NCBI GenBank assembly: GCA_963826535.1
Contig: CAWGXL010000010.1
Span: 426,814 to 490,813 of the forward strand
DNA: 64,000 nt
Reading direction: 5' to 3'
Source of the DNA: an uncultured bacterium
GTDB lineage: Bacteria > Patescibacteriota > Microgenomatia > Levybacterales > UBA12049
A model generated the notes under the pieces. That model saw nothing but the letters and a program-made list of their open reading frames with translations, made no database searches and was not told where the DNA came from. Positions 3,133 to 55,114 of the stretch are shown piece after piece (position 1 is the first letter of the stretch; every line of letters starts with the position of its first letter). A program made the translations under genes and the position numbers.

Positions 3133-5286
3133 ATGAAAAAAATTATTAATTCTTCAAATTCACAGTCCTTAAAAATTCCGAATCATATTTATATATCATT
3201 TTCTATAAGTATTTTTTTAAGCTCTTTTTTACTTTTCCAGGTGCAGCCTATTATAAGCAAGTATATTTTACCCTGGTTTGGCGGATCTTCTGCTGTTTGG
3301 ATTACCGCAATACTATTTTTCCAAACACTTCTCCTCCTCGGCTATTTATATGTATTTTTGATCTCACGGTTACAATTAAAAAAACAAATAATTATTCACA
3401 TCTCTTTATTAGTTTTAATTACCTTTAATGTCTTATCGAATTTAAATAGCTCTCAAATACCCATCCTGCCAAATATAAAATCAGGATTGGGTAACAATTT
3501 TGCACCGCAATTTCAAGTACTATGGATACTTTTCATAGGTACGGGGCTCACTTACTTTATTCTGTCTACAACAAGTATACTTCTGCAAAAATGGTTCGGT
3601 GTCACTTATTATGGCAAGTCACCATATATTTTTTATTCTTTGTCTAATATCGCATCCCTTTTAGCTTTAATCAGTTACCCATTCCTTGTTGAGCCGTTCT
3701 TTCAACTAAAAACACAAGGTTTAACATGGTCCATAGGATTCTTAATATATAGCATATTTCTACTTGTCTGTTGTCTTCAAACATTTTCCACAACTTTAAA
3801 ATTAAAACAGAATTTAAGCAAAACTAAAAATAACCTTAAGGTAGTAAACAATATAAGCCGAAAAAAACTTTTTTTATGGATTTTGTTACCGGCCATTTCC
3901 TCCCTAATGCTTATGGCTACTACCAATTTACTAACTCAGTCAATCGCACCCATCCCATTCCTTTGGCTTTTGCCTTTGAGCATATATCTAATCTCGTTTA
4001 TTATCTGCTTCAGTGGAAAGAAATGGTATTTACGCAATCTATATGCATATATATCTCTTGTTACCGGTTTTTTATCTCTTGCGTTCATGTTTGGCAATAT
4101 CCCTTCTCTTCTGACCGGCCTGATCTTTTATAGCTTGATCCTTTTAAGCGCTTGCATGATCTGTCACGGAGAGCTGTATGCTCTCAGACCCGCGTCCATT
4201 CATTTAGATTTATATTATCTATTTATTGCCCTCGGGAGTGTCATAAGCGGAATACTGGTCGGTATAATTGCTCCATTGTTTTTCAAGGGAATTTGGGAAA
4301 CATATATAGGATTTTATCTTACATTTTTACTTACCGTTTGGGTATTAATCCATTATAAAGATTCAATTTTTTATAGGCACCTGCATTTTTTTGCCTATTC
4401 AGATAAGGAAGCATATATCTTTGCACTAATAGCCTACCCGCTCACTCTCATTGCAACTCCCTTGATGATGAATCTACTATCAGGAAGTAATCCAATCACA
4501 CAAAAAGTATGGAGAAATTTCTATGGTGTCCTAAGTGTAAAACACAAAAACGGCAATAATTTGACAACTCTCAATCACGGCAATATCATACATGGTGCCC
4601 AATTCACTGGAAATCTACAATTCGAACCGACAACATATTACGGTAAAAGAAGTGGTGTCGGGCTTGCCATTCTAAATCATCCAAAATACAGGAAAAGAAT
4701 TCACATTGGAATTATCGGACTGGGTACAGGAACTCTGGCCGCTTATGGGAAAAAAGGGGATTCGCTTTCATTTTATGAAATAAATCCTCAAGTTGTTGAA
4801 ATAGCCAAAAGCCAGTTTACATATCTAAAAAATTCTCCTTCAAAAATAAATATTGTATTGGGCGATGGTCGATTGTCATTAGAAAAAGAAGTGCAGGAAA
4901 ATAAAGAAAAATATGATTTACTGATTGTGGATGCTTTTAGTGATGATGCAATACCATTACATTTGCTGACAAATGAAGCTCTATCAGTCTATCTGAAACG
5001 ACTGAGCCGCCCCGACGGCATAATCGCATTTCATATCTCTAATCAGTATATAGATCTAAAACCGGTACTGGTCCAATTAGCAATAAAATACCATTTACAA
5101 CATGCTTTTATTAATTCTCCTGCTTCGAATATAAATATGGCATCGGAGTGGGCATTATTGACATACAATAAAAAAATCCTTGAAATTCCAGCAATAGCCA
5201 ACTATAAATATCCCGAAAATAAAAAATACAAAGAAATAAGTTTGTGGACAGACAATTACAGTAACCTCTTCCAAGTATTAAAATAA
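3133..5286 (+). CDS. Fusion protein: N-terminal polytopic membrane domain plus C-terminal spermidine synthase-like (aminopropyltransferase/SAM MTase fold) domain
   Basis: At least 12 predicted TM segments, then GIIGLGTGTLAAYG ... LIVDAFSDD, which is the spermidine-synthase family glycine-rich and acidic motif pair. Confidence 0.55.
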   Translation: MKKIINSSNSQSLKIPNHIYISFSISIFLSSFLLFQVQPIISKYILPWFGGSSAVWITAILFFQTLLLLGYLYVFLISRLQLKKQIIIHISLLVLITFNVLSNLNSSQIPILPNIKSGLGNNFAPQFQVLWILFIGTGLTYFILSTTSILLQKWFGVTYYGKSPYIFYSLSNIASLLALISYPFLVEPFFQLKTQGLTWSIGFLIYSIFLLVCCLQTFSTTLKLKQNLSKTKNNLKVVNNISRKKLFLWILLPAISSLMLMATTNLLTQSIAPIPFLWLLPLSIYLISFIICFSGKKWYLRNLYAYISLVTGFLSLAFMFGNIPSLLTGLIFYSLILLSACMICHGELYALRPASIHLDLYYLFIALGSVISGILVGIIAPLFFKGIWETYIGFYLTFLLTVWVLIHYKDSIFYRHLHFFAYSDKEAYIFALIAYPLTLIATPLMMNLLSGSNPITQKVWRNFYGVLSVKHKNGNNLTTLNHGNIIHGAQFTGNLQFEPTTYYGKRSGVGLAILNHPKYRKRIHIGIIGLGTGTLAAYGKKGDSLSFYEINPQVVEIAKSQFTYLKNSPSKINIVLGDGRLSLEKEVQENKEKYDLLIVDAFSDDAIPLHLLTNEALSVYLKRLSRPDGIIAFHISNQYIDLKPVLVQLAIKYHLQHAFINSPASNINMASEWALLTYNKKILEIPAIANYKYPENKKYKEISLWTDNYSNLFQVLK

Positions 5287-5366: not shown

Positions 5367-6359
5367 ATGATCCATCGTATTTTCAGATATTTACTAAAAA
5401 ACCAAGTACTATTTGCATTATTTATAGTCATTGCAGGATGGGTCTTATTACAAATTCGAGACATACTTCTTTCTGTTTTTCTCTCCTATATTATCGTGTC
5501 TGCTATATTACCCTCAGTAAAATTTTTACGGAGAAAAGGCGTCCCCAAACTACTGGCTGTGGTTATACCTTACTTTACAATGCTAGTTGCAATTTTTCTC
5601 CTCATACTACCATTAATTCCATTCATAATTTCTCAATTGCAGTCCTTAATACATAGATTTCCTCTCTATTTCAAACAAGCAAGCATCACACTCGGCCTCT
5701 CATTTGATTCTATCCAAATTCAATCTTATCTAACTAACGAATTAAACAATATTAGTAGAAATGCATTTACGTTAACCACGCAAGTCTTCGGCGGTCTATT
5801 CTCAATTATGATGATTTTAATAGTTAGTTTCTATTTACTACTATATTATGATGAATTTAAAAAATTTTTAGCAAACCTTTTCCCACATGATAATCGTATA
5901 TATGTACTTTCGACTATCGATAAAGTAAACCAAAAACTCGGAGCATGGCTTCGCGGTCAGGTTATACTTTGCTTGTTTATTGGATTATTATCCTGGATTT
6001 CTTTGACCGCCCTAGGAATCCCAAATGCATTACCGCTTGCCTTGCTTTCCGGTATTTTGGAAATAGTTCCAACCCTGGGACCAATTCTTTCAGCTATTCC
6101 GGCAGTTATAGTTGCTCTAACTATTTCGCCAACTTTAGGAATAACTGTCATTATCGTCTATATCCTCCTTCAACTCATTGAAAATAATTTCTTGGTACCC
6201 AAAGTTATGGAAAGAGCCGTAGGACTAAATCCTATCGTCGTGATTTTAGGAGTCCTGATCGGGGCTAATCTTATTGGTATTTCAGGTGCATTACTAGCTA
6301 TTCCATTGATCACATTCATACTCGTAATCATCAAAAGTCTAGAACAAAAACAACCATAA
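5367..6359 (+). CDS. AI-2E family (UPF0118, PerM/TqsA-like) transporter
   Basis: Eight TM helices. Conserved LLSGILEIVPTLGPILSAIPAVIVAL segment typical of AI-2E family. Confidence 0.7.
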   Translation: MIHRIFRYLLKNQVLFALFIVIAGWVLLQIRDILLSVFLSYIIVSAILPSVKFLRRKGVPKLLAVVIPYFTMLVAIFLLILPLIPFIISQLQSLIHRFPLYFKQASITLGLSFDSIQIQSYLTNELNNISRNAFTLTTQVFGGLFSIMMILIVSFYLLLYYDEFKKFLANLFPHDNRIYVLSTIDKVNQKLGAWLRGQVILCLFIGLLSWISLTALGIPNALPLALLSGILEIVPTLGPILSAIPAVIVALTISPTLGITVIIVYILLQLIENNFLVPKVMERAVGLNPIVVILGVLIGANLIGISGALLAIPLITFILVIIKSLEQKQP

Positions 6360-10669: not shown

Positions 10670-11326
10670 ATGTATATAAGAAAATTAATTAGATCTATTG
10701 TAATATTTGTTATTATTTCTGTTTGTATTTTTCAAATTCCAACCATGCAGTTTTTTTCTGCGGAAAAGCCTCTGCTTGCAGAACATACAATATCACTAAA
10801 TAGCCGCTATGGTAATATTAGTGTTAATAATGTTTTTAAAAATAATATTCTTTTAACTCTAGCCTATATGTCTGGGACGGTGAACAACAAATCTGATATT
10901 AACTGGCAGGAAATTGATAAGCCATTCCATTATAATTATGTGCTTCAACCCGGTGAAGTTTTCGCATTTCATGATGATATTCTCCCTTCTTATAAGGATA
11001 AACGCGTTAGTACTACGAATGCAAATTTTGGTGCAAACGAAGGTTTCTTATCAGATGGTCTTTTGTACGGAGACGGAGTTTGTCATTTAGCGTCTCTAAT
11101 CAGTTGGGCTGCAAAAGACGCGGGATTATCAGTTTTAGCACCAATCAAACATGATTTCGCAAACATTCCTGAAATACCTAGAGAGCATGGAGTATCAATA
11201 TATTCTGCACCGGGTCAAACAGGAATTAATCAGGGGCAAAATTTATATATAGAAAACACACTTGGAACTCCCGTTATATTCTCGTTCGACTACAATAATG
11301 GTTTTTTAAACCTTGCTATTTATTGA
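10670..11326 (+). CDS. VanW-like protein (putative)
   Basis: N-terminal TM, then GDGVCHLASLISWAAKDAG resembling the VanW GGVCQ[VL]S[ST]TL motif. Confidence 0.4.
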   Translation: MYIRKLIRSIVIFVIISVCIFQIPTMQFFSAEKPLLAEHTISLNSRYGNISVNNVFKNNILLTLAYMSGTVNNKSDINWQEIDKPFHYNYVLQPGEVFAFHDDILPSYKDKRVSTTNANFGANEGFLSDGLLYGDGVCHLASLISWAAKDAGLSVLAPIKHDFANIPEIPREHGVSIYSAPGQTGINQGQNLYIENTLGTPVIFSFDYNNGFLNLAIY

Positions 11327-12124
11327 TGAAAAAACAAACTTTTCAATCACATGCGCAACCCCATCGTCATTTACGCTTGGAGCAATATAATCTGCAATCT
11401 TCTTAAGCCCTGGTACTGCATTGCCCACCGCAACACGCAATCCACATGCTTTGAAAAGCGGAAAATCATTATATCCATCTCCCACACCAATAATATCAGC
11501 CTTTGTTACTTTAATTAGCTCCGCGTATTTTAACGCGGCATATTTTTTAGTGGCTTGAGAATGAGTAATATGCAAAGCAACACACCCCTGATGATAAGCG
11601 ACCACCTTAGTTAATGCCAAACTATGGTAATGCGATAAATTACGAATTATCATATCCGCTCTTTTTTCCTGTATTCGGGGAATAAAAAAACTAATAGGTT
11701 TTCTTAAATTTAGGTTTTGTGTATAGATTTGTTCGCGGTTGTTATCAACTATCCATACTTTACTGGTAAGTTGATTAACAATACTGGTTATATTTTTTAA
11801 GTCTTTTTGAAGAATTTGTCTTTCCCAAAGAATTTTCCGGGAAACAGGATTTACAATTTGTGCTCCGCCATTTATAATGCAGGGTCCTTTTAGGCCTAGT
11901 TCCTTAAACAAAAACGTCACTCTGTCTAACGCCCTACCGCTCGCTATTCCAATTTTTACATTCTTTTTAGCATTTATAATTGAATCATATACTCTTTTGC
12001 TGATTCTTCCGTTATATTTATTTGTAACTAGTGTTCCATCTATATCACATAGCATTGCTTTATACTTGTGTTTATATTTTTTCCCCATTAATTCTATTTT
12101 AGACATATCTAGTTGGAATTGCAA
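11306..12124 (-). CDS. HAD-IIB (Cof-type) hydrolase / sugar phosphatase
   Basis: Motif I CDIDGTL, motif III/IV GVGDGYNDFPLFKACGLRVAVGNA. Confidence 0.8.
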   Translation of the reverse strand: MQFQLDMSKIELMGKKYKHKYKAMLCDIDGTLVTNKYNGRISKRVYDSIINAKKNVKIGIASGRALDRVTFLFKELGLKGPCIINGGAQIVNPVSRKILWERQILQKDLKNITSIVNQLTSKVWIVDNNREQIYTQNLNLRKPISFFIPRIQEKRADMIIRNLSHYHSLALTKVVAYHQGCVALHITHSQATKKYAALKYAELIKVTKADIIGVGDGYNDFPLFKACGLRVAVGNAVPGLKKIADYIAPSVNDDGVAHVIEKFVFSSINSKV

Positions 12125-12212
12125 GTCAGCAGCAAAAATACTACTTTCTTATCCTTATTCTAGTTTAGATTGTCTTAGTGAAGAAAAGCAAGGGGTAGAA
12201 ATTACTATATTT

Positions 12213-12476
12213 TTATTTGCTTTTTACTCTCTCCGCAGTAATGGTACACTCGGTTACCAAAGCCGCTATTGCCCCAACTGCCGCAAGCATTGGTGCTATA
12301 ACAGCCCCTATGACACCAATTGTCAACGGTAATTCTACAAGCACTTTATCTTCTTTGTCTTTAATTATAATACGCCTAACATTTCCTTCCTTTATAAGGT
12401 CTTTTACCTTTCCGAGTAAATGTTTTCCATTCACTTTAAAACTTTCTTCACTTTTTTTCTTTTTATTTTCTGGCAT
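12213..12476 (-). CDS. DUF4342-like small protein
   Basis: 87 aa. The KVNGKHLLGKVKDLIKEGNVRRIIIKDKEDKVLVELPL pattern followed by a hydrophobic tail matches the DUF4342 family as recalled. Confidence 0.45.
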   Translation of the reverse strand: MPENKKKKSEESFKVNGKHLLGKVKDLIKEGNVRRIIIKDKEDKVLVELPLTIGVIGAVIAPMLAAVGAIAALVTECTITAERVKSK

Positions 12477-12637
12477 ATTCCTCCTTTCTTTGACTTTTAT
12501 ATTATTTATAGTATACCATGTTCACGCAACTTATCTTGAGGTAAGAAGTGGTTTTTGCTATACTGCAATTTAAGCGGGCAACGTTCATGTTGCTCGGAAG
12601 TGAATTAACAGTTTGAATTATAATCAAACTGAACGTT

Positions 12638-12711
12638 GCGGGCGTAGTTCACCGGTAGAACGCCTCCTTGCCAAGGAGGAGGTAGTGGGTTCGATCCCCA
12701 TCGCCCGCTCC
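12638..12711 (+). tRNA. tRNA-Gly (anticodon GCC)
   Basis: GCGGGCG/TA/GTTC-ACCGGTA-GAAC/G/CCTCC-TTGCCAA-GGAGG/AGGTA/GTGGG-TTCGATC-CCCAT/CGCCCGC+T. Confidence 0.85.
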
Positions 12712-46470: not shown

Positions 46471-47265
46471 ATGAAAAAACTTATAATCGATAACTATATT
46501 TTCTTCCTTTTGCCCTTTTTCGCAGCGTATTTTGCCGCATTGTATTTAGTACTTAGTTTGCAATTTTTTTACGGTGATGCGCTATCAAGGTCTTTCCACG
46601 CTTACGCGGTCTTTTTTGCCAATGAACCTAAATTTGCGAATATAGGATTTGTTTGGCCACCGTTTCCAACGCTTTTAGCTTTGCCCTTGACACTGATTAA
46701 GCCACTTAATCTATTTGGTTTTTCAGGAAATTTATTAAGTGCTGTTTTCCTGGGCATTACAAGTTTGTTTCTTAATAAGATTTTTATGTTTTTTAATATC
46801 TCTCTTTTTACGAGAATTGCATTAATGCTCCTTTTTATTTTTAACCCAATGATGCTTTTTTATGGAGCAAATGGAATGTCTGAAATGATCGGTATTTGTT
46901 TTTTAGTAGCAACTTTATTTTATTTCCTATCATATCTCAAATCCGGGGGTATCGGATATCTTATTGCTACGAGCCTCGCGACCTCACTTGCGGTAATGAC
47001 TAGGTATGAGATGGCCGCGCTTATACCGGTAATTATTTTGCTATTAGTCGTAATTAGGATAAACAGGTCCAAGTGGGAGGGTAAAAATAAAAAAAGCTTG
47101 ATCGAGCGGGATTTGTTGCTTTATGGAGCCCCGATTGCATTTACCCTGGCTTTATGGGTATTTGCGAATTGGGCTATTATGCACAACCCGTTTTACTTCA
47201 TGACAAGTGTCTATTCTAATGTTTCCCAAGCTGGTATTCTTCTAGAAAATTCGGAGTACTATTGA
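46471..47265 (+). CDS. Polytopic membrane protein (N-terminal part of possibly split gene)
   Basis: 264 aa, about 8 TM helices. Confidence 0.35.
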   Translation: MKKLIIDNYIFFLLPFFAAYFAALYLVLSLQFFYGDALSRSFHAYAVFFANEPKFANIGFVWPPFPTLLALPLTLIKPLNLFGFSGNLLSAVFLGITSLFLNKIFMFFNISLFTRIALMLLFIFNPMMLFYGANGMSEMIGICFLVATLFYFLSYLKSGGIGYLIATSLATSLAVMTRYEMAALIPVIILLLVVIRINRSKWEGKNKKSLIERDLLLYGAPIAFTLALWVFANWAIMHNPFYFMTSVYSNVSQAGILLENSEYY

Positions 47266-47343
47266 AGAATCCATAATAATATTACTTCATCCATATTATA
47301 TGTAGGACATCGAGTTGTAATTCTTTTTCCAGCGTTTATTATT

Positions 47344-48042
47344 TTGTTGGCAGTAGTATTGACGAAAGTTTTAAGAAAACATAATTGGATCCTTACTTCT
47401 GCAATACTTGCTTTACCGTTTTCAATTTTATTTTTTCATGTATTTTTACTATATAATGGGCAATCCTATGGATGGTTACGATTTTTTATTTACATCATCC
47501 CCGCTTCGTATATCTTGAGCGCTCTTATCATTTCGTACTATATGAAAAGTAGATATTATAAAATTATTGTCGGTCTTGTTTTAACACTTAATCTTTTTTC
47601 TTCTTATAGTACTTATCTTTCGATGTCTGATCCAAGATTTGGAGTGGAGGAATACAGGCTTGTTAATGCCATAACTACACAAAACCAGGAGTTGTTGGAT
47701 CATGACTCATACGTCGAGGACTTAACGATTGCAGACTATTTAACAAATAATATAACTACAGGCAAAGTCATAGTTGATGATTTTACTGGTTTCCCAATTA
47801 TTTATTTGAGCGGCAAACCTGAATTATTTATCGAAACAATAGATAAGGATTTTGAGCAAACACTTAAAAATGTTACTAACGATAAGCGTGTTCATTATAT
47901 CCTTGTCCCCAAACCAGAAGGAACAAGAACTTTAGATGCAATAAATAGAATGTATCCAACCATGTTTGATAACGGCGCGAACATTGCGGATCTTGTTATG
48001 GATTTTGGAAAGTGGAGATTATATAAAAAAATAAATACATAA
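47344..48042 (+). CDS. Membrane protein with C-terminal soluble domain (possible continuation of 46471-47265)
   Basis: Three or four TM helices then a globular region. The 78-nt gap from the upstream ORF is in a different frame. Confidence 0.3.
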   Translation: MLAVVLTKVLRKHNWILTSAILALPFSILFFHVFLLYNGQSYGWLRFFIYIIPASYILSALIISYYMKSRYYKIIVGLVLTLNLFSSYSTYLSMSDPRFGVEEYRLVNAITTQNQELLDHDSYVEDLTIADYLTNNITTGKVIVDDFTGFPIIYLSGKPELFIETIDKDFEQTLKNVTNDKRVHYILVPKPEGTRTLDAINRMYPTMFDNGANIADLVMDFGKWRLYKKINT

Positions 48043-49180: not shown

Positions 49181-50140
49181 CTATCCCCCCGTATATTCCG
49201 GAGGTTCGATGCCCAAACTACTTAATGAATAATCCAGAAGCTCTTTCATCTCCTTCCTCCTGCTCTCGCTATTCAAAATAATCCCTATAATTCTATGTCC
49301 TCCATAGTCCAAATATGTCACCAGACAAAATCCTGCTTCAGGCGTATATCCGGTCTTTACCCCTTTCACCCCCGGATACGTTGTAAGCAAATTAGTTTCG
49401 TTAAAAAGGCCATATCCTTTGTGACCTGAAGTCGCCAGAACATCATAGCTCGGACTGGAGACAATTTTTTCAAACAGTGGAAAATTTTCAATCGCGTACC
49501 GTGTAATAACCAACAAATCATAAGCTGTGGTATATTGCTCCCCATCTCCCTGCAAGCCTGAGGGATTACTGAATCGAGTATCTTTAAGCCCCAGAGCAAG
49601 TGCTTTGTCATTCATTGCCTTTATAAAACCCTCGCGACTGCCGTCTATATAGTTTCTGGCCAAAACCTCTGCCGCATCGTTACCTGATGGCAGCAATAGA
49701 CCATACAACAATTCCTCTCTGGACAATATTTCACCCGTTCCAAGCCCCATTATGTTTTCTCCGACCAAATCTACCCCCAAAACCTCGTAGTTGGCCTCTT
49801 TGCCTTTTTCAAGAGCGATAATTGCTGTCATAACTTTACTCAAAGACGCCATAGGTCTCCGAATTCTTGGATTTTTCTCAAAGAGCACCTTTTCTGTACT
49901 CAAGTCATAAACCAAAACGGAGTCGGCAGTAATCTCCGGCATACTATTTTCGCTGCCATAAGCCTCTGTCCAGAAAGGCAACCAAAGATCAAGCAAGGTT
50001 ACCTGTTTATTTTTCTCAAGAGTCAAAAAATCAGGCAGCGGGGAAATCAATGAAGCGTCATCTCGCAATCGCAATTCAAAAAACCAAAACAAACCTGTAA
50101 AGATAACCGACAGAACCACAATAGATAAAAAATGCTTCAT
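49181..50140 (-). CDS. D-alanyl-D-alanine carboxypeptidase (PBP5/DacA-type serine peptidase)
   Basis: SXXK ASLSKVMT, SXN LLPSGNDAA, KTG GVKTGYTPEAG. N-terminal signal anchor. Confidence 0.85.
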   Translation of the reverse strand: MKHFLSIVVLSVIFTGLFWFFELRLRDDASLISPLPDFLTLEKNKQVTLLDLWLPFWTEAYGSENSMPEITADSVLVYDLSTEKVLFEKNPRIRRPMASLSKVMTAIIALEKGKEANYEVLGVDLVGENIMGLGTGEILSREELLYGLLLPSGNDAAEVLARNYIDGSREGFIKAMNDKALALGLKDTRFSNPSGLQGDGEQYTTAYDLLVITRYAIENFPLFEKIVSSPSYDVLATSGHKGYGLFNETNLLTTYPGVKGVKTGYTPEAGFCLVTYLDYGGHRIIGIILNSESRRKEMKELLDYSLSSLGIEPPEYTGG

Positions 50141-50307: not shown

Positions 50308-50892
50308 ATGTTAATAAAATTAATCTTAAGTCTTATTATAATAGTCGGAGTCGGCGCAGCAGCATTCTCGGCAACTAGTGCGCTTTTATCCGATACTGCT
50401 ATATTGGCAGCTAATACTTTTAGTACAGGCACTTTTGATTTGCAAATTTCTAAAAGTACTTCCAGTAATCCTACTACATTCGCATCAGATTCAATTACCG
50501 GTTTTACTGATACTTTTCTACCGGGACAAAGCAAATCAAAAACATTTTGGTTAAAAAATAACAGCACGGATATAGATTTCGCGACAGCAGCGCAATCATC
50601 CAGTATTAGTGGGGAAATTAGCCCAGGTAGTGTAACAGTTGCATTTACACCTGTTAGCAACGATGACACTTCCGTTGTAGGAACAGCAACATCACACACA
50701 TTAACTGAATGGGGATCAGTATCTGCTTTAGACAGCAATATTGGTCATGGCGGAAAACAAAGATATAGGATGGAAGTTACACTTGATCCAAGCGTAACAA
50801 CAACTGGCTCTATTAACTTTGATTTCGTCTTTACGGGCACAGAAGTCGTACCTGCACCAACGGTTACGCCTACTGTGACACCAACACCGTAA
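50308..50892 (+). CDS. SipW-cognate (TasA/camelysin-like) secreted fibre protein candidate
   Basis: SD AAAGGGGGTGA. N-terminal LIIIVGVGAAAFSATSALLSDTAILAANTFSTGTFDL matches the SipW-cognate signal region (A.FSDTE..NTF.AGT.DL). Thr/Pro-rich C-terminus. Confidence 0.6.
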   Translation: MLIKLILSLIIIVGVGAAAFSATSALLSDTAILAANTFSTGTFDLQISKSTSSNPTTFASDSITGFTDTFLPGQSKSKTFWLKNNSTDIDFATAAQSSSISGEISPGSVTVAFTPVSNDDTSVVGTATSHTLTEWGSVSALDSNIGHGGKQRYRMEVTLDPSVTTTGSINFDFVFTGTEVVPAPTVTPTVTPTP

Positions 50893-50986
50893 TAGGATGG
50901 GTTTAAATAGTGCAAAACTCAACCTTTATATGGTCAAGAATTCACCCCCTCTCTCGCAAAAAACGGGAGAGGGGAAGACTAAAAAA

Positions 50987-51958
50987 ATGAAAAATGTAAT
51001 TAAAAATTTTGTGATTATTTTCGTTTTACTTATTGGTTTTACTTTATTTGTGTTATCTAACCAGACACTCGGATGGAGAGCCTTTATTGTTACCTCCGCC
51101 TCAATGGAACCCGCTGTCGGTACCGGGTCCTTAGTAGTAACACAATACAAACATCCTAATACATTATCTAAAAACGACATTATTACCTTTATCCCTCCAA
51201 TAAAGACACACGCATTTATCACCCATCGTATTAGTAAAGTATCTCAAAATAAAAGTCTAACGACTTTCAAAACAAAAGGTGATAATAACAAAAACGAAGA
51301 CAAATGGACGCTCGCAGGCGGGGGAGTAGTTGGAAAAGTCACCTACATAATTCCATATCTTGGATTTTTTATGTCCTTTGTCCAAAGCAAAATAGGCATC
51401 CTCCTTTTCATCCTCCTTCCGGCTGTATACATCATTATTGATGAAATATTTAATATTGCAAAAACCATCAAGCACCACAAAAAGAAAATAATCCCGGCAA
51501 ATGAAATATCAACTACTGCATTATTAATTTTTTTAAGCTCCATATTTTTCCCGCTTCAACCGGCCTACGCGCTCCTGTCTGACTCTGCAGGTCTGACCAA
51601 TAATACTTTTACAGTAAATTCTATTACCCCAACCGTTACACCTTTCGAATTCCCTAGCTGTAAGGATCCGCACGGAACGATTATCTCATCATACAAGACA
51701 GGAAGGCACGAAATTATCGGTGTGGGGTTGCTTATTGGTAGCGATACTGTATATCAGTTAACTGAAGGTTCCAAAGAAAAAGTACTGCAGTGCTTCTGTC
51801 CTGAATCAGGACCAGGTATTCAAACAAATTGGATTAAGACAACAGAAATAGAAAGGTTTAAATTTGACGGATGGCCGCATTCTATCACCTCCGGCCTTAG
51901 TTGGAATCTAGACGACAACCCGTATGTAGCACAAAATATTGAATATACTTGCAATTAA
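50987..51958 (+). CDS. Signal peptidase I, SipW/archaeal type, fused to a C-terminal SipW-cognate-like domain
   Basis: VTSASMEPAVGTGS (catalytic Ser box SxSMEP). Conserved His region ITHRISKV. After a second TM: PLQPAYALLSDSAGLTNNTFTVNSI, a cognate-signal-like motif, then ~150 aa Cys-containing domain. Confidence 0.65.
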   Translation: MKNVIKNFVIIFVLLIGFTLFVLSNQTLGWRAFIVTSASMEPAVGTGSLVVTQYKHPNTLSKNDIITFIPPIKTHAFITHRISKVSQNKSLTTFKTKGDNNKNEDKWTLAGGGVVGKVTYIIPYLGFFMSFVQSKIGILLFILLPAVYIIIDEIFNIAKTIKHHKKKIIPANEISTTALLIFLSSIFFPLQPAYALLSDSAGLTNNTFTVNSITPTVTPFEFPSCKDPHGTIISSYKTGRHEIIGVGLLIGSDTVYQLTEGSKEKVLQCFCPESGPGIQTNWIKTTEIERFKFDGWPHSITSGLSWNLDDNPYVAQNIEYTCN

Positions 51959-51965
51959 GCGGAAA

Positions 51966-52523
51966 CTATTCTTTTACAGCCAATGTTGCATCACTCTTAT
52001 AGACTGCGACTGCGACCATTCTTTGCGAATCCAAAAACCCTGTGCAAGTATACAAAGTTATCCTTTTATCCTTTGAGGGAGCCAAAATACTCGACTGTGT
52101 ATAAGGAACAACTGAGGTATATTGAACAATAAACTTTTTTCTTGTTTTATCTTCATACTCTACATCAATATCCATATCCGGCCGGATATTGACCAATGGT
52201 CCGAACAAGCTCGCCCAATCATGGGCATAAATTATGCTGTTACCTGTATTTCCGGGAATTGGTGAAGAAAGTAGATAGGATGCACCTTTAGTTGTAGTTT
52301 GCCACTCACTTTTGACAACTTTAGCCGGAAAGATAGGTAGATCAATACCCAAATCCCGAATAGTAATCCTAACCGGCGGATTAACCACCGCTTCTTCCTT
52401 ATAATTTCCAACATAATTCTTAAAAGCCAACCTATTCGGGTTATTCCGCTCCCATATTAGAAAAACTGCAGCAATAAAACAGACAATTCCAAAAAAAAGC
52501 AATAAATATGCAATCCTTTTCAT
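51966..52523 (-). CDS. Sortase (transpeptidase) 2
   Basis: N-terminal TM. His in SIIYAHDWAS. Catalytic TLXTC: RITLYTCTG. Confidence 0.7.
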   Translation of the reverse strand: MKRIAYLLLFFGIVCFIAAVFLIWERNNPNRLAFKNYVGNYKEEAVVNPPVRITIRDLGIDLPIFPAKVVKSEWQTTTKGASYLLSSPIPGNTGNSIIYAHDWASLFGPLVNIRPDMDIDVEYEDKTRKKFIVQYTSVVPYTQSSILAPSKDKRITLYTCTGFLDSQRMVAVAVYKSDATLAVKE

Positions 52524-52561: not shown

Positions 52562-53269
52562 TTACGACTTGCTTAATTTCTTTAAAACAAGCCCGGAGAT
52601 AAGGGAGATTGCTCCTGCAATAATGACCGAATAGATAAATGCTGCGTTTCCTGTGCTTGCAAGTGATTCATGCGCACCCCCAACTTGACCGGTAACAAGT
52701 GCTGGTGTTGCAGTTGGACCCGGCCCTGGTGTGCTTGTAGGCCCTGGTGTAGGCGTGCTAGTAGGCCCTGTAGTCGCTGTAGGGGTCGGTGTAGGCGTCA
52801 CAACCACTTCTCCGCAGTCTTTCACTGTATACACTTTAGCATCCATTGCGTATGCGTAATAAGGTTTTTCCTCAAGATAACGATTTCCTCGTATTAGATC
52901 TGTTTGCACCCTACATGAATTACTGTCACCTTCAAGAGAAATCGTTTCAGTTTTACCCGACGCTACTTTTACGGTTTTATGAGTAATGTATACCTGGCTA
53001 TCAATAAAACTAGGTGAATTTTCTTCTTGAGGAGCCTCATACTTTACCAATGTTGCGTCGTATTCACAAGCTTTGTTCTTTGAAAAGTTAGTAACTGTAG
53101 CATTATTTTTATCCAACAGCTGCCCTTGCAAATCTACATCTATATCACCATCACATACCTCGGTTGTTTGATTTTCCTCTGTAGTAGCAAGTACAACAGA
53201 AGCAGACAAGGTCAAACAAGTAGTGACCAAAATGAGCGGTAGAGTAATATTAAGTAAAATAGTTTTCAT
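52562..53269 (-). CDS. LAXTG-type cell-wall-anchored Thr/Pro-rich surface protein
   Basis: Signal peptide. TPTPTPTATTGPTSTPTPGPTSTPGPGPTATP stalk. Sorting signal LASTG, then hydrophobic segment, then KKLSKS. Confidence 0.7.
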   Translation of the reverse strand: MKTILLNITLPLILVTTCLTLSASVVLATTEENQTTEVCDGDIDVDLQGQLLDKNNATVTNFSKNKACEYDATLVKYEAPQEENSPSFIDSQVYITHKTVKVASGKTETISLEGDSNSCRVQTDLIRGNRYLEEKPYYAYAMDAKVYTVKDCGEVVVTPTPTPTATTGPTSTPTPGPTSTPGPGPTATPALVTGQVGGAHESLASTGNAAFIYSVIIAGAISLISGLVLKKLSKS

Positions 53270-53346: not shown

Positions 53347-53691
53347 TTAAAGTTCCTGTAGAATTACTATAGCGTCACCTAAATTATCGTAATATTCAAC
53401 TTTAAGAATGTGCACGCCCTCGGTAAGTGTGACTGTTGGTGTATATGTTGTAATATCATGGTCAGTCCAATCATCTACGAGTAATTGGTCATCAACCCAA
53501 AATCGAACACCGTCATTTGATTGAAGGCTAAAAGAATAGTCACCAGCCGCGAATTGTTTCTCCTTAATCCATCGGGCTGAAAACTGATCTACATTTACTA
53601 ATGGATCCGGCGAGCCTGCACCCCAATTAAAATTAATTTGTGCGTCCTGACGAGTCAGAACTGGAGCGCCCGTCAATGCGATATTATTGAA
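53347..53691 (-). CDS. PA14 domain protein, C-terminal fragment truncated at the compositional junction
   Basis: NIALTGAPVLTRQDAQINFNWGAGSPDP...DQFSARW...GDYSFSLQSNDGVRFWVDDQLLVDDW is a canonical PA14 fold. The apparent N-terminus MLEPGLLHF is antisense of the fumC start region, so the true 5' end is missing. Confidence 0.6.
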   Translation of the reverse strand, partial: FNNIALTGAPVLTRQDAQINFNWGAGSPDPLVNVDQFSARWIKEKQFAAGDYSFSLQSNDGVRFWVDDQLLVDDWTDHDITTYTPTVTLTEGVHILKVEYYDNLGDAIVILQEL

Positions 53692-55114
53692 ATGCAGCAA
53701 ACCAGGCTCGAGCACGACTCGCTCGGGCCGGTGCCGGTCCCGCGGACCGGCTGTGGGGCGCGCAGACCGAGCGGTCGCGCACCCATTTCGCGATCGGCGA
53801 CCCCGACGTCTACCGGTGGCCGCGCGGCGGTGATTCGCGCGTTCGGCTGGTCAAGGCCGCCGCCGCCGATGCGAACCTGCAGCTCGGGGTGATCGACGCC
53901 GACGTCGCCGCGCTCATCGCGCAGGCGTCGCTGGAAGTGGCCGCCGGCGAGTGGGACGCGAGTTCCCGCTCGGCGTGTTCCAGACCGGCTCGGGCACGCA
54001 CACGCAACATGAACGCCAACGAGGTGATCGCCAACCGCGCCAATCAGCTCGCGCGGCGGCGCGCTCGGCAGCGTATCGGCCCGTGCACCCCAACGACCAC
54101 GTGAACCGCGGGCAGTCGTCGAACGACGTGTTCCCGGCCGTCATGCACCTGGCGACGCTCGAGGCGCTCGAACGGCTCGAGCCGGCGGTCGCCGCGCTGC
54201 GCGGCCGCGCTCGTGCGAGTCACGCCGCGCGCTGGCACGACCTGCCGATGCTGGGCCGCACGCACCTGCAGGACGCCACGCCGATCATGCTCGGCGACGT
54301 CGTGGCCAGCTGGACGGCGCAGATCGATCAGCGCCTGGACGCGGCTGGCGCAGGCGCGGCGCGGGCTGCACGCGCTGCCGCTCGGCGGCACTGCCGTCGG
54401 CACAGGGCTCAACGCGCCATCGCGACTTCGGGCGCGCTGGCGATCGCCGCCTGGCCGACGCGACCGGCTATCCGCTGCGCCAGGCACCGAACCTGCCCGC
54501 GGCCCTCGCCGCGCACGACGCCATGGCGACGGTGAGCGCCGCGCTGCGGGCCTGGCCGGGGCGCTCTTCAAGATGGCCAACGACATCCGGCTTACGCGTT
54601 CGGGGCCGCGCGCGGGCCTGGGCGAGCTGCGGCTGCCGGCCAACGAGCCGGGCTCGTCGATCATGCCGGGCAAGGTGAACCCCAGCCAGTGCGAGGCGCT
54701 GACGATGGTGGCGGTGCACGTCTTCGGCTGCGACGCCGCCGTGGCGTGGGCCAACGCCCAGGGTCCGCTGCAGCTGAACGTCTACAAGCCCGTGATCCTC
54801 CACAACGTGCTCGAACCGGCGCGGCTGCTGCGCGACGCGTGACGTGGCGTTCACACGCTACTGCGCTCGACGGGCTCGAGCCGGGCCGGCGCGCATCGAG
54901 GCGCATCTGCAGGCCTCGCTGATGCTCGTGACCGCGCTCGTGCCGCACATCGGCTACGACCGCGCCGCGAAGTCGCGCTGGCGCCCATCGCGAAGGACGC
55001 GCGCTGCGGGAGGCGGCGGTGGACTCGGGCGTGGTGAGCGCGGACAACTTCGACGGGTGGGTGCGCCCGGCGGAGATGGCGCGTCCCCATGGCCCGAAAG
55101 TGGCCGGGGACTAG
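53692..55114 (+). pseudogene. fumC: Fumarate hydratase class II (fumC-like), reading frame broken by at least 4 frameshifts
   Basis: [85 protein letters not shown] and LVTALVPHIGYDRAAK are found across frames 1, 0, 2, 0, 1. Confidence 0.7.

What the first reader, a model, noticed from the sequence alone, without database searches (positions are those of the whole stretch)
50987..51958. SipW-type signal peptidase fused in-frame to a domain carrying its own cognate-like cleavage motif
After the SPase domain (about 190 aa) comes a second hydrophobic segment (TTALLIFLSSIFF), then PLQPAYA|LLSDSAGLTNNTFTVNSI. This mirrors the SipW-cognate signal of the upstream gene (SALLSDTAILAANTFSTGTF). It is followed by a ~150-aa Cys-containing domain. 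No internal ATG start exists, so this is a true fusion and not two genes. An enzyme fused to a substrate-like module suggests autoprocessing that releases a second fibre subunit or tip protein.
Basis: seen in the sequence. Interest (0 to 1): 0.6.

Follow-up and report, generated by a model that had tools for sequence, protein, structure and literature searches.

The report
Signal peptidase fused to its substrate
A pilus-type signal peptidase in an ultrasmall (CPR/Patescibacteria) bacterium is genuinely fused to a copy of its own substrate's signal peptide, cleavage site and fibre-joining strand, followed by a surface domain. This looks like a built-in way to make one fibre starter or tip protein per enzyme molecule.

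Summary
ORF 50987-51958 encodes an ER/archaeal-type (SipW-like) signal peptidase. After its second membrane helix come a basic loop, a third short hydrophobic segment, a [T/S]-x-A cleavage site, the strand LLSDSAGLTNNTFTV, a Pro/Thr linker and a 104-aa four-cysteine domain.

The fusion is not an indel artefact. 44 of the 48 closest homologues, from independent assemblies, keep the same junction while the cargo behind it varies. More distant Patescibacteria show the same layout.

The internal segment is homologous to the N-terminus of the adjacent TasA/camelysin-like fibre protein (hhalign 96.7%, E 3.6e-10). It co-varies with that protein lineage by lineage (permutation p<5e-5). The two motifs use different synonymous codons.

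The cysteine domain is usually found on small sortase-anchored surface proteins.

Best reading: a polyprotein in which the peptidase domain cuts, in cis or trans, at AYA|LLSD. This releases a TapA-like initiator or tip subunit that plugs its new N-terminal strand into the TasA-like fibre. Neither cleavage nor fibre incorporation is shown; both are inferred.

I found no description of substrate-fused SipW in the searchable literature. I rate it a new variant of a known kind.

The parts
49181..50140 (-). D-Ala-D-Ala carboxypeptidase (Peptidase_S11), a conserved neighbour of the locus
   Evidence: PF00768 E 1.8e-46. The same gene sits at the same position in L003 and L004.
50308..50892 (+). TasA/camelysin-like fibre subunit, 194 aa. 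Signal peptide aa 1-25 (50308-50382), predicted cut TSA|LL, donor-type strand LLSDTAILAANTFST (50383-50427).
   Evidence: 11 of 24 family members hit PF12389 Peptidase_M73, best E 1.1e-9. AF2 model pLDDT 87.5, a beta-sandwich. Best Foldseek PDB hits are the archaeal bundling pilus AbpA 7ueg (E 3.8e-4), self-complemented FimA, and the TasA fibre 8aur (TMq 0.41).
50946..50974 (+). Intergenic GC-rich hairpin. Its 3' arm, GGGAGAGGGG, is the only Shine-Dalgarno-like run ahead of ATG 50987.
   Evidence: -22.3 kcal/mol, z -4.6, 0 of 200 shuffles fold as well. Equally strong hairpins of unrelated sequence sit at the same position in six related loci.
50987..51958 (+). The fusion gene as a whole: SipW-type peptidase, then internal signal, then donor-like strand, then Cys domain (323 aa plus stop)
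51005..51055 (+). TM1 (aa 7-23), the N-terminal anchor of the peptidase
   Evidence: Hydropathy 2.98
51095..51301 (+). Catalytic core. Ser39 lies in SASMEP (51101-51103), His80 in THR (51224-51226), Asp99 in KGDNN (51281-51283), and Asp105 at 51299-51301.
   Evidence: All four residues are invariant in 39 homologues. The domain aligns to human SEC11C/SEC11A, E 4.4e-6. TIGR02228 is above cutoff.
51395..51451 (+). TM2 (aa 137-155), the normal C-terminal helix of SipW-type peptidases
   Evidence: Unfused relatives stop shortly after this helix.
51461..51508 (+). Basic cytoplasmic loop KTIKHHKKKIIPANE, equivalent to the n-region of the internal signal
   Evidence: Mean net charge of the 18 residues ending at the last charged residue before the hydrophobic segment is +2.4 over 38 homologues
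51509..51571 (+). Internal signal peptide. The h-region is STTALLIFLSSIFF (51509-51550) and the c-region is PLQPAYA (51551-51571). The predicted cut lies between 51571 and 51572.
   Evidence: Median h+c length is 22 aa. Position -3 is T, S or A and position -1 is A, S, G or T in 38 of 38 homologues. Pro lies within -9..-1 in 25 of 38. The segment aligns with the h/c region of the TasA-like signal.
51572..51616 (+). Donor-strand-like segment LLSDSAGLTNNTFTV, the new N-terminus after the predicted cut
   Evidence: 9 of 15 residues are identical to the neighbour's LLSDTAILAANTFST, encoded with different synonymous codons. Co-varies with the cognate gene. pLDDT about 60 and unstructured in the monomer model.
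51617..51643 (+). Pro/Thr linker NSITPTVTP
   Evidence: Sequence. The linker varies in length among homologues.
51644..51955 (+). Four-cysteine globular cargo domain, 104 aa
   Evidence: AF2 pLDDT about 97. A profile finds 339 clusters (E up to 0.001). Most are about 200-aa proteins of the form signal peptide, domain, LAxTG anchor. 38% identical to the sortase-side protein of L004, E 2e-25. No Pfam hit and no PDB fold match.
51966..52523 (-). Sortase
   Evidence: PF04203 E 6.3e-16. Conserved at this position in L001, L003, L004 and L009.
52562..53269 (-). Sortase substrate: signal peptide, Cys-containing domain, Pro/Thr linker, LASTG, TM, KKLSKS
   Evidence: Sequence. 41% identical to the L003 counterpart, E 6e-45.

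Best explanation
The gene encodes a polyprotein.

The N-terminal 170 aa form an active ER/archaeal-type signal peptidase of the SipW kind, with the catalytic domain outside the cell and TM1 and TM2 in the membrane. After TM2 the chain returns to the cytoplasm as a Lys/His-rich loop. It then re-crosses the membrane through a short hydrophobic segment that is, in effect, a SipW-type signal peptide placed inside the protein.

This exports the C-terminal 128 aa. The peptidase domain, of the same molecule or of a neighbour, then cuts at AYA|LLSD. The signal peptide stays attached to the enzyme as a third helix.

The released cargo starts with a strand that copies the donor strand of the adjacent TasA-like fibre subunit, followed by a linker and a complete four-cysteine surface domain. 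The cargo has a strand to give but no TasA-type groove to receive one. It would therefore act like Bacillus TapA: it supplies the first strand to a TasA-like subunit and ends up as the initiator or tip of the fibre, displaying a probable adhesion domain.

Fusion fixes production at one initiator per peptidase. The hairpin upstream keeps both scarce relative to the major subunit.

Shown: the architecture, its conservation, homology and co-variation of the internal segment with the cognate substrate, and the domain's kinship with sortase-displayed proteins.
Inferred: export topology, cleavage, who cleaves, and fibre incorporation.
For: 1. The peptidase is intact. TIGR02228 scores 95.6 bits against a cutoff of 51.85. 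Ser39, His80, Asp99 and Asp105 are invariant. It aligns with SEC11.

2. The junction is conserved. 44 of 48 close homologues carry the basic loop, TM3, [T/S]-x-[A/S/G] and LLSD..N.F. In the 38 homologues a stricter pattern could score, position -3 is T 31, S 6, A 1 and position -1 is A 29, S 6, G 2, T 1. Median h+c length is 22 aa, against 21 in the 10 TasA-like signals the same pattern could score, all T-x-A.

3. The cargo behind the motif is interchangeable. I saw the Cys domain, a CGGN..NGAGS repeat module, an Ig-like LGTCS module, charged tails, RTX repeats, and in L016 and L031 a whole TasA-like domain. The constant part is therefore the signal, cut site and strand.

4. Homology to the cognate substrate's N-terminus: E 7.9e-4 as the only secondary hit in the window; hhalign 96.7%, E 3.6e-10.

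5. Co-variation over 21 loci. The first 15 residues after the cut match the same-locus TasA-like protein at 7.2 of 15 positions, against 5.2 for non-cognate pairs (p<5e-5). Distant lineages alone give p=3e-4, for example LFSDTVNVSGIT with LFSDTVVVSGIT, and FFSD..NNL with YFSD..NNL.

6. Four of the five identical residues A-L-L-S-D use different codons in the two genes. Selection on the peptide maintains the likeness, not recent duplication.

7. The strand is disordered and the domain is confidently folded on its own: pLDDT about 60 against about 97. Four near-invariant cysteines fit an extracytoplasmic location.

8. Precedent in Bacillus:
- TasA residues 28-38 are the donor strand, and TapA's N-terminus resembles it and is modelled to complement TasA (PMC9674648).
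- TapA acts by strand complementation and cannot take part beyond initiation because its fold is complete.
- tapA and sipW have overlapping stop and start codons, and both proteins are scarce (PMC10151520).

9. TasA homologues are known in Patescibacteria (PMC9245690).

10. From established knowledge: ER-type signal peptidase cuts after internal signal sequences in flavivirus and hepacivirus polyproteins. Cleavage after an internal TM is therefore within this enzyme class's repertoire.
Against: - No cleavage product, proteomic peptide or structure of a complex was available. Cleavage and fibre incorporation are inferences.
- The window's internal segment does not reach NCBIfam TIGR04088 (no hit at E up to 10).
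- The window's own upstream protein has no Pfam hit on its own, and fold matches to AbpA and TasA are modest (TM about 0.33-0.41).
- The conserved residues after the cut could reflect peptidase recognition only, not a donor strand.
- Close relatives do without any cargo (L001, L009), so the module is not essential to the system.
- The co-variation test used hand-registered 15-mers. Three of the pairs were matched only by equal contig length.
Confidence: 0.5

Rival explanations
1. Permanent tether. TM3 is a stable third membrane helix and is not cut. The donor-like strand and Cys domain stay attached to the peptidase. They would serve as a membrane-bound initiator, anchor or chaperone that captures freshly cleaved TasA-like subunits and ties the fibre base to the cell.
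For: - TapA is described as an anchoring and assembly protein that co-localises with the membrane (PMC10151520).
- Fusion to a membrane enzyme would give anchoring for free.
- Haloarchaeal TafD-type peptidases carry extra TM helices and a second extracellular domain (PMC11821415; L030, L067, L072).
- Topology and homology evidence fit this reading equally well.
Against: - Small residues at -3 and -1 are kept in 38 of 38 homologues, with a Pro-rich c-region and a short h-region. A plain anchor would have no need for these.
- The strand starts only 7 residues beyond the hydrophobic segment. Uncut, it would be held against the membrane.
- A stand-alone cargo gene with an ordinary cleavable N-terminal signal exists in L018.
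Confidence: 0.2
2. Released but not a fibre part. The internal signal is cut by SipW, but the cargo is simply a secreted or surface protein. The conserved residues after the cut are only the P' side of the peptidase recognition site.
For: - SipW-type substrates have distinctive P' residues. TasA's P2' Phe makes its site incompatible with LepB (PMC10269814, abstract).
- In the relatives P2' is L, F or Y in both cargo and pilin.
- Co-variation with the cognate pilin would also follow from shared dependence on one enzyme.
- Some cargoes are mere charged tails.
Against: - Conservation and co-variation run 13-15 residues past the cut, through N-x-F. That is far beyond what a type I signal peptidase contacts.
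- It matches the length of the TasA donor strand, residues 28-38 plus F39 (PMC9674648).
- TapA sets the precedent for a non-pilin protein carrying the strand.
Confidence: 0.15
3. Pseudo-substrate regulator. The internal copy of the substrate site occupies the active site in cis and keeps the peptidase inactive, or paces it, until displaced.
For: The enzyme and a substrate-like site are in one chain, close to the membrane surface.
Against: - This would not explain the large, variable, well-folded extracellular cargo domains.
- It would not explain their kinship with displayed surface proteins.
- Unfused relatives function without the module.
Confidence: 0.05
4. Artefact. A sequencing or assembly indel, or a lost stop codon, has joined two separate genes.
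For: - The window does contain a join of unrelated sequences at about 53.7 kb.
- The genome is a metagenome assembly.
Against: - The same in-frame junction occurs in dozens of independent assemblies at 45-61% identity, with a conserved loop and TM3.
- No start codon is available for a second gene.
- The same layout occurs in distant lineages.
Confidence: 0.01

Closest known systems
Bacillus subtilis tapA-sipW-tasA operon (TapA as donor-strand initiator of TasA fibres)
   Same: - A dedicated ER-type signal peptidase sits next to a TasA/camelysin-family fibre subunit.
- A second, scarce substrate has a mature N-terminus that mimics the fibre's donor strand and a body that is a complete non-pilin domain.
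- In Bacillus, tapA and sipW are already translationally coupled through overlapping stop and start codons (PMC10151520, PMC9674648).
   Different: - Here the accessory substrate is covalently fused behind the peptidase through an internal signal peptide.
- The gene order is reversed: peptidase first, cargo second.
- The cargo domain is unrelated to TapA and varies between relatives.
- The organism is a Patescibacterium.
- The peptidase is below the NCBIfam SipW equivalog cutoff (104.5 against 190).
Archaeal bundling pili AbpA/AbpB and related donor-strand fibres (threads, tafi, AbpX)
   Same: - TasA-superfamily subunits are joined by N-terminal donor strands.
- Loci often hold a dedicated signal peptidase I and predicted tip or minor subunits.
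- AbpB is proposed to give the first strand and carry distal adhesin domains (PMC9245690; 10.64898/2026.01.04.697558).
   Different: In those systems the tip or minor components are separate genes with their own N-terminal signals. No peptidase-substrate fusion is described there.
Signal peptidase I fused to DUF5305 (TafG-like) accessory domain; multi-TM TafD peptidases
   Same: A SipW/TafD-type peptidase is extended by extra membrane spans and an extracellular domain (PMC11821415; 10.64898/2026.01.04.697558).
   Different: - Those extensions are interpreted as accessory subunits of the enzyme.
- They lack a substrate-like signal, cut site or donor strand.
- The window protein has no DUF5305 or any other Pfam hit beyond the peptidase.
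Flavivirus/hepacivirus polyproteins cut by ER signal peptidase at internal signal sequences (established knowledge)
   Same: A hydrophobic segment inside a longer chain acts as a signal peptide. An ER-type Ser-His peptidase then cuts on the far side of the membrane and frees the downstream domain.
   Different: - There the enzyme is a separate host complex, whereas here enzyme and substrate are one chain.
- The setting here is bacterial.
Sortase-anchored surface proteins of Patescibacteria carrying the same four-cysteine domain
   Same: The cargo domain is homologous: 38% identity to L004 9060-9701, in a family of 339 clusters.
   Different: - Those proteins have an ordinary N-terminal signal and a C-terminal LAxTG anchor (at least 75 of 148).
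- The window's copy has neither and ends at EYTCN.

Membership tests
ER/archaeal-type signal peptidase I (TIGR02228; SipW-like) | Profile match above the curated cutoff | tested here: met
   TIGR02228 scores 95.6 bits against a cutoff of 51.85, over aa 8-154. The Pfam Peptidase_S26 match is only 16.2 bits against 22.9.
ER/archaeal-type signal peptidase I (TIGR02228; SipW-like) | Ser-His(-Asp) catalytic residues instead of the bacterial Ser-Lys dyad | tested here: met
   S39 (SM), H80 (HR), D99 (GDN) and D105 are invariant in 39 homologues. They align with the SGSMEP, VHRV and KGDNN motifs of human SEC11C. The spacing matches Sec11 and SipW as known from the literature (own knowledge).
ER/archaeal-type signal peptidase I (TIGR02228; SipW-like) | N-terminal and C-terminal membrane helices flanking the catalytic domain | tested here: met
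   TM1 at aa 7-23 and TM2 at aa 137-155
ER/archaeal-type signal peptidase I (TIGR02228; SipW-like) | Signal peptide cleavage activity | not testable with these tools
   Needs expression and a cleavage assay
Bacillus SipW equivalog (NF046067) | Score above the equivalog cutoff | tested here: not met
   104.5 bits against a cutoff of 190. It is SipW-like, not a SipW orthologue.
SipW-dependent-type signal peptide (TIGR04088) for the internal segment aa 159-215 | Match to the TIGR04088 profile | tested here: not met
   No hit at E up to 10 for the window's segment or for the upstream protein's N-terminus. The fused cargo of relative L016 scores 16.1 bits against a cutoff of 19, E 0.009.
SipW-dependent-type signal peptide (TIGR04088) for the internal segment aa 159-215 | Homology to the signal and mature N-terminus of a TasA-family protein encoded next to the peptidase | tested here: met
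   hhalign 96.7%, E 3.6e-10. hmmsearch E 7.9e-4, unique in the window.
SipW-dependent-type signal peptide (TIGR04088) for the internal segment aa 159-215 | n-, h- and c-regions with small residues at -3 and -1 | tested here: met
   A basic loop, median h+c length of 22 aa, and positions -3/-1 small in 38 of 38 homologues
TasA/camelysin (PF12389 Peptidase_M73) for the upstream gene 50308-50892 | Profile match | tested here: inconclusive
   The window protein itself has no Pfam hit. 11 of 24 close homologues hit PF12389 at E up to 1, best E 1.1e-9.
TasA/camelysin (PF12389 Peptidase_M73) for the upstream gene 50308-50892 | Beta-sandwich or jelly-roll fold of donor-strand fibre subunits | tested here: inconclusive
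   The top Foldseek PDB hits are AbpA 7ueg (E 3.8e-4) and FimA, with the TasA fibre 8aur at rank 44. TM-scores are only 0.33-0.41.
TapA (B. subtilis) | Sequence homology of the cargo to TapA | tested here: not met
   No Pfam, NCBIfam or PDB sequence hit for aa 196-323. The likeness to TapA is functional only.
TapA (B. subtilis) | Mature N-terminus resembling the fibre's donor strand, followed by a self-sufficient domain | tested here: met
   9 of 15 residues identical to the cognate strand. The domain folds alone at pLDDT about 97 while the strand is disordered.
TapA (B. subtilis) | Actual strand complementation of the fibre subunit | not testable with these tools
   No multimer prediction or experiment was available
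SPase I-DUF5305 fusions | DUF5305 domain in the extension | tested here: not met
   No Pfam family other than Peptidase_S26 at E up to 0.1
Sortase (LPXTG/LAxTG) substrates, for the Cys domain | C-terminal sorting signal | tested here: not met
   The fusion ends at EYTCN with no LAxTG or TM. Most homologous domains elsewhere do carry one.

The most novel reading that the evidence does not exclude
Patescibacteria may widely use SipW-cargo polyproteins as a modular plug-and-display system. Any domain placed behind the internal signal and donor strand would be exported, cut off by the enzyme it is fused to, and loaded in a fixed 1:1 ratio as the first or tip subunit of a TasA-like fibre. The same domains can instead be displayed through sortase. 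Swapping domains between the two routes would retune what these episymbionts stick to, including perhaps their hosts.
Probability: 0.35. Interest if true: 0.8.

Novelty: new variant of a known kind. Interest (0 to 1): 0.62.

Why it matters
If cleavage is confirmed, I know of no described signal peptidase that carries its own productive substrate in the same chain. It would also be a bacterial counterpart of the internal-signal processing known from viral polyproteins.

It would show how genome-reduced CPR bacteria hard-wire the stoichiometry and co-localisation that Bacillus achieves by coupling tapA to sipW.

It gives a simple, testable rule: the donor strand is copied from the neighbouring pilin. 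That rule can be used to find fibre tip or initiator proteins, and hence candidate adhesins, in organisms that cannot be cultured.

It also defines an unannotated four-cysteine surface-domain family of at least 339 clusters, and documents domain exchange between sortase display and fibre display.

Tried and rejected
- A word-indexed homologue search with the Cys domain alone found only one fragment, P0062. It was uninformative and was replaced by the exhaustive profile search.
- PDB sequence searches with the upstream protein and the cargo found nothing meaningful.
- A Foldseek PDB search with the Cys-domain model found nothing at E<1.
- An exact look-up of the window's own protein on its contig found no record.
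- NCBIfam TIGR04088 did not detect the window's motif.
- Recent DNA duplication of the motif was rejected, because the synonymous codons differ and no DNA repeat links the two sites.
- The indel or lost-stop artefact was rejected.
- The DUF5305-type accessory fusion was rejected.
- Literature searches combining SipW, TasA or camelysin with CPR, Patescibacteria, fusion or TIGR04088 found no description of a substrate-fused peptidase.
Full report
**1. The observation**

ORF 50987-51958 on the + strand is continuous and encodes 323 aa.

NCBIfam places aa 8-166 in the ER/archaeal-type signal peptidase I family. TIGR02228 scores 95.6 bits against a cutoff of 51.85. The Bacillus SipW model NF046067 gives E 4.8e-30 but is below its equivalog cutoff. 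The domain aligns with human SEC11C and SEC11A. Ser39, His80, Asp99 and Asp105 are invariant in 39 homologues.

There are three hydrophobic segments:
- TM1: aa 7-23
- TM2: aa 137-155
- A shorter third segment: aa 175-188

After the third segment come PLQPAYA and LLSDSAGLTNNTFTV, then NSITPTVTP, then a 104-aa domain with four cysteines.

No ATG, GTG or TTG lies in frame between aa 150 and 215, and the other frames are closed. The exceptions are that the globular domain is about 104 aa rather than 150, and the hydrophobic segment is the third, not the second.

**2. Is the resemblance to the upstream signal more than chance?**

I built a profile from the first 50 aa of the upstream protein's homologues, leaving the window's own copy out. 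Against all 630 stop-to-stop segments of the window it finds that gene (E 1.7e-24) and then only the fusion ORF at aa 195-210 (E 7.9e-4). The next hit is at E 0.76.

I also compared two profiles: the internal segment from 36 fusion proteins and the N-terminus from 20 upstream-type proteins. This gives 96.7% probability, E 3.6e-10, over 31 columns. The aligned columns run from the hydrophobic region through T-x-A and the cut site to the N-x-F-T of the mature end.

At the DNA level the two ALLSD motifs use different codons at four of the five residues, and no DNA repeat links them. The likeness is therefore kept at the protein level.

**3. Is the fusion real?**

The homologue search returned 61 proteins. 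The 48 closest (E below 1e-34) come from NCBI, JGI, ENA and Logan assemblies.
- 38 match a strict pattern for TM3, the cut site and the strand.
- Six more carry obvious variants: P0005, P0006, P0011, P0012, P0021 and P0047.
- Two are too short to judge: P0023 and P0037.
- Two are genuinely unfused: P0030 and P0042.

In L001 the unfused gene ends with a stop after the basic loop, and no cargo gene follows. The closest species-level relative, L009 (60% identity), is also unfused.

In the 38 scored fusions, position -3 is T, S or A and position -1 is A, S, G or T without exception. The median distance from the last charged residue to the cut is 22 aa, against 21 in the 10 upstream-type signals the same pattern could score. 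The 18 residues ending at the last charged residue before the hydrophobic segment carry a mean net charge of +2.4.

An indel or lost stop cannot explain this.

**4. What varies and what does not**

The cargo behind the conserved strand differs between homologues:
- the four-cysteine domain (window, P0002-P0006, P0012)
- a CGGN..ISGNGAGS repeat module that also occurs in free secreted proteins of the same loci (L004 7120-8421)
- an Ig-like module with LGTCS..C.YH
- Lys/Asp/His-rich tails
- RTX repeats (P0046)

A scan of one genome per species found 529 relatives, of which the best 80 were kept. Nearly all of the best-scoring records are titled Patescibacteria lineages: Levyibacteriota, Shapiro-, Roizman- and Gottesmanbacteria, WWE3 and Saccharimonadales. 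Some MAG titles look unreliable.

Most of these peptidases are ordinary. At least 18 of the 80 continue in frame into TM3, a cut-like site, a camelysin-type N-terminal motif and cargo of up to 1,100 aa. In L016 and L031 the cargo is itself TasA-like. The L016 segment scores 16.1 bits on TIGR04088, against a cutoff of 19.

Haloarchaeal relatives have extensions without the motif. These match the multi-TM TafD type described in PMC11821415.

**5. The neighbours**

The upstream gene (50308-50892) has no Pfam hit itself. However, 11 of its 24 homologues hit PF12389 (camelysin/TasA), best E 1.1e-9.

Its AF2 model (pLDDT 87.5) is a beta-sandwich. Its best PDB matches are the archaeal bundling pilus AbpA, self-complemented FimA and, lower down, the TasA fibre. 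TM-scores are modest.

Synteny is conserved:

| Position | Gene | Strand |
|---|---|---|
| 1 | Peptidase_S11 | - |
| 2 | TasA-like | + |
| 3 | Peptidase, with or without cargo | + |
| 4 | Sortase | - |
| 5 | LAxTG-anchored protein | - |

**6. Co-variation**

For 21 loci I compared two 15-residue stretches: the residues after the predicted cut in the fused cargo, and the same stretch of the TasA-like protein in the same locus.

| Set | Result |
|---|---|
| All 21 loci | Cognate pairs share 7.2 of 15 residues, non-cognate 5.2; permutation p<5e-5 |
| Distant lineages only | p=3e-4 |
| Close clade only | p=0.02 |

Examples:
- LFSDTVNVSGIT with LFSDTVVVSGIT (L017)
- FFSDTETSPANNL with YFSDLEVSSKNNL (L087)
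- ALSSQV with LLSSSV (P0069 and P0041)

**7. The cargo domain**

The model of aa 196-323 has pLDDT about 97 over the Cys domain and about 60 over the first 25 residues, which stay unstructured. Foldseek finds no PDB fold match at E<1, and there is no Pfam or PDB sequence match.

An exhaustive profile search finds 339 clusters. The usual architecture is a protein of about 200 aa with an N-terminal signal, the domain, a linker and a LAxTG sortase signal. At least 75 of 148 match by a strict pattern.

L004 encodes such a protein beside its sortase, 38% identical, E 2e-25. L009 does too.

The domain appears to move between the two display routes. Where it is fused to the peptidase (window, L003), the sortase substrate carries a different domain.

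**8. Mechanism**

The positive-inside rule places the KHHKKK loop in the cytoplasm. TM3 then runs from inside to outside, so the cut site and the four-cysteine domain lie on the same side as the catalytic domain. This topology is inferred from sequence.

In B. subtilis (PMC9674648):
- The first 11 residues of mature TasA (28-38) form the donor strand that completes the next subunit.
- TapA's N-terminus resembles that strand and is modelled to complement TasA.

Also in B. subtilis (PMC10151520):
- TapA acts by strand complementation.
- TapA cannot take part beyond initiation because its own fold is complete.
- TapA is as scarce as SipW.
- The tapA stop codon overlaps the sipW start codon.

The window's cargo has the same logic: a strand copied from the fibre subunit plus a self-sufficient domain. 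Here it is welded to the peptidase.

The most economical reading is that the peptidase domain cuts at AYA|LLSD, in cis or in trans. It keeps the signal peptide as a third helix and releases a TapA-like initiator or tip subunit.

ER-type signal peptidases are known to cut after internal signal sequences in viral polyproteins (established knowledge).

**9. A conserved hairpin**

An 11-bp hairpin at 50946-50974 (-22.3 kcal/mol, z -4.6) lies between the two genes and contains the only Shine-Dalgarno-like run. Equally strong hairpins of unrelated sequence sit at the same place in six relatives, fused or not.

This would keep the peptidase and its cargo scarce relative to the fibre subunit, as in other pilus operons. 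It also argues that ATG 50987 is the true start, not the database start at 50930.

**10. Rivals**

- The module may stay uncut as a membrane tether or anchor. The (-3,-1) conservation, the short h-region and the stand-alone cargo gene with a normal signal in L018 argue against this, but it is not excluded.
- The cargo may be released without joining a fibre. In that case the conserved stretch would be only a recognition site, yet conservation runs 13-15 residues past the cut.
- A pseudo-substrate regulator does not explain the variable folded cargoes.
- An artefact is excluded for practical purposes.

**11. Novelty**

These points are already known:
- TasA homologues occur in Patescibacteria (PMC9245690).
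- Fibre loci hold dedicated signal peptidases and tip proteins.
- Some such peptidases are fused to DUF5305 accessory domains.

No paper in the searchable library describes a SipW-type peptidase fused to a substrate-like signal, strand and cargo.

I rate it a new variant of a known kind. The architecture is firmly established, and the processing step is still to be shown.

Noticed in passing
window 53,650-53,750: GC content jumps from about 0.40-0.48 to about 0.75 within 100 bases and stays near 0.7 to the end of the window. The break falls at the 5' end of a truncated PA14-domain ORF (53347-53715, - strand; PF07691 E 2.4e-16). Two unrelated sequences seem to be joined here, either by contig concatenation or by a chimeric assembly. 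It lies 1.7 kb beyond the finding and does not affect it.
   Followed up: partly
window 50946-50974; also L001 about 1022-1060, L002 about 3848-3888, L003 about 2951-2998, L004 about 5939-5986, L009 about 1651-1687, L012 about 2938-2984: A strong GC-rich hairpin sits between the TasA-like gene and the peptidase gene. In the window its 3' arm is the only Shine-Dalgarno-like run. The position is conserved in six relatives but the sequence is not (all z at or below -4). It is probably an attenuator or a ribosome-binding-site mask that sets the ratio of fibre subunit to peptidase.
   Followed up: partly
window 51644-51955; L004 9060-9701 (-); L009 3081-3428 (-): The four-cysteine domain defines an unannotated family of at least 339 clusters (E up to 0.001). 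Most members are small sortase-anchored (LAxTG) proteins. Loci seem to carry it either on the peptidase or on the sortase substrate, with another domain taking the free slot.
   Followed up: partly
L006 1108-1929, L007 532-1353, L008 149-970 (protein P0056): In a more distant lineage (29% identity), a 273-aa SipW-type peptidase runs in frame into MKNSKPIV...GTVAYLTDNAAVVNTFTVGQVKL. That sequence is a classic camelysin-type signal and N-terminus, with its own Met. The protein sequence is identical on four contigs. It may be an independent fusion or an in-frame read-through of two genes.
   Followed up: partly
L004 7120-7677 and 7825-8421; C-termini of P0007-P0010, P0025 and others: A repeat module, (S/N)GNGA(G/F)S.N.V.V...N...V.Q.N, with no Pfam match occurs in two settings. 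It is peptidase-fused cargo in some proteins and makes up free secreted proteins in the same loci.
   Followed up: no
window 50930 versus 50987: The database protein for this gene (P0001, 342 aa) starts at ATG 50930 and would translate through the intergenic hairpin. Homologue N-termini and the hairpin favour ATG 50987.
   Followed up: yes
window 46471-48042: Two adjacent ORFs (264 and 232 aa) look like the halves of one membrane glycosyltransferase of the PMT_2/ArnT type (PF13231 E 3.9e-5 for the first). L004 encodes a single 544-aa counterpart at 11067-12701. This may be a frameshift or a split gene.
   Followed up: no
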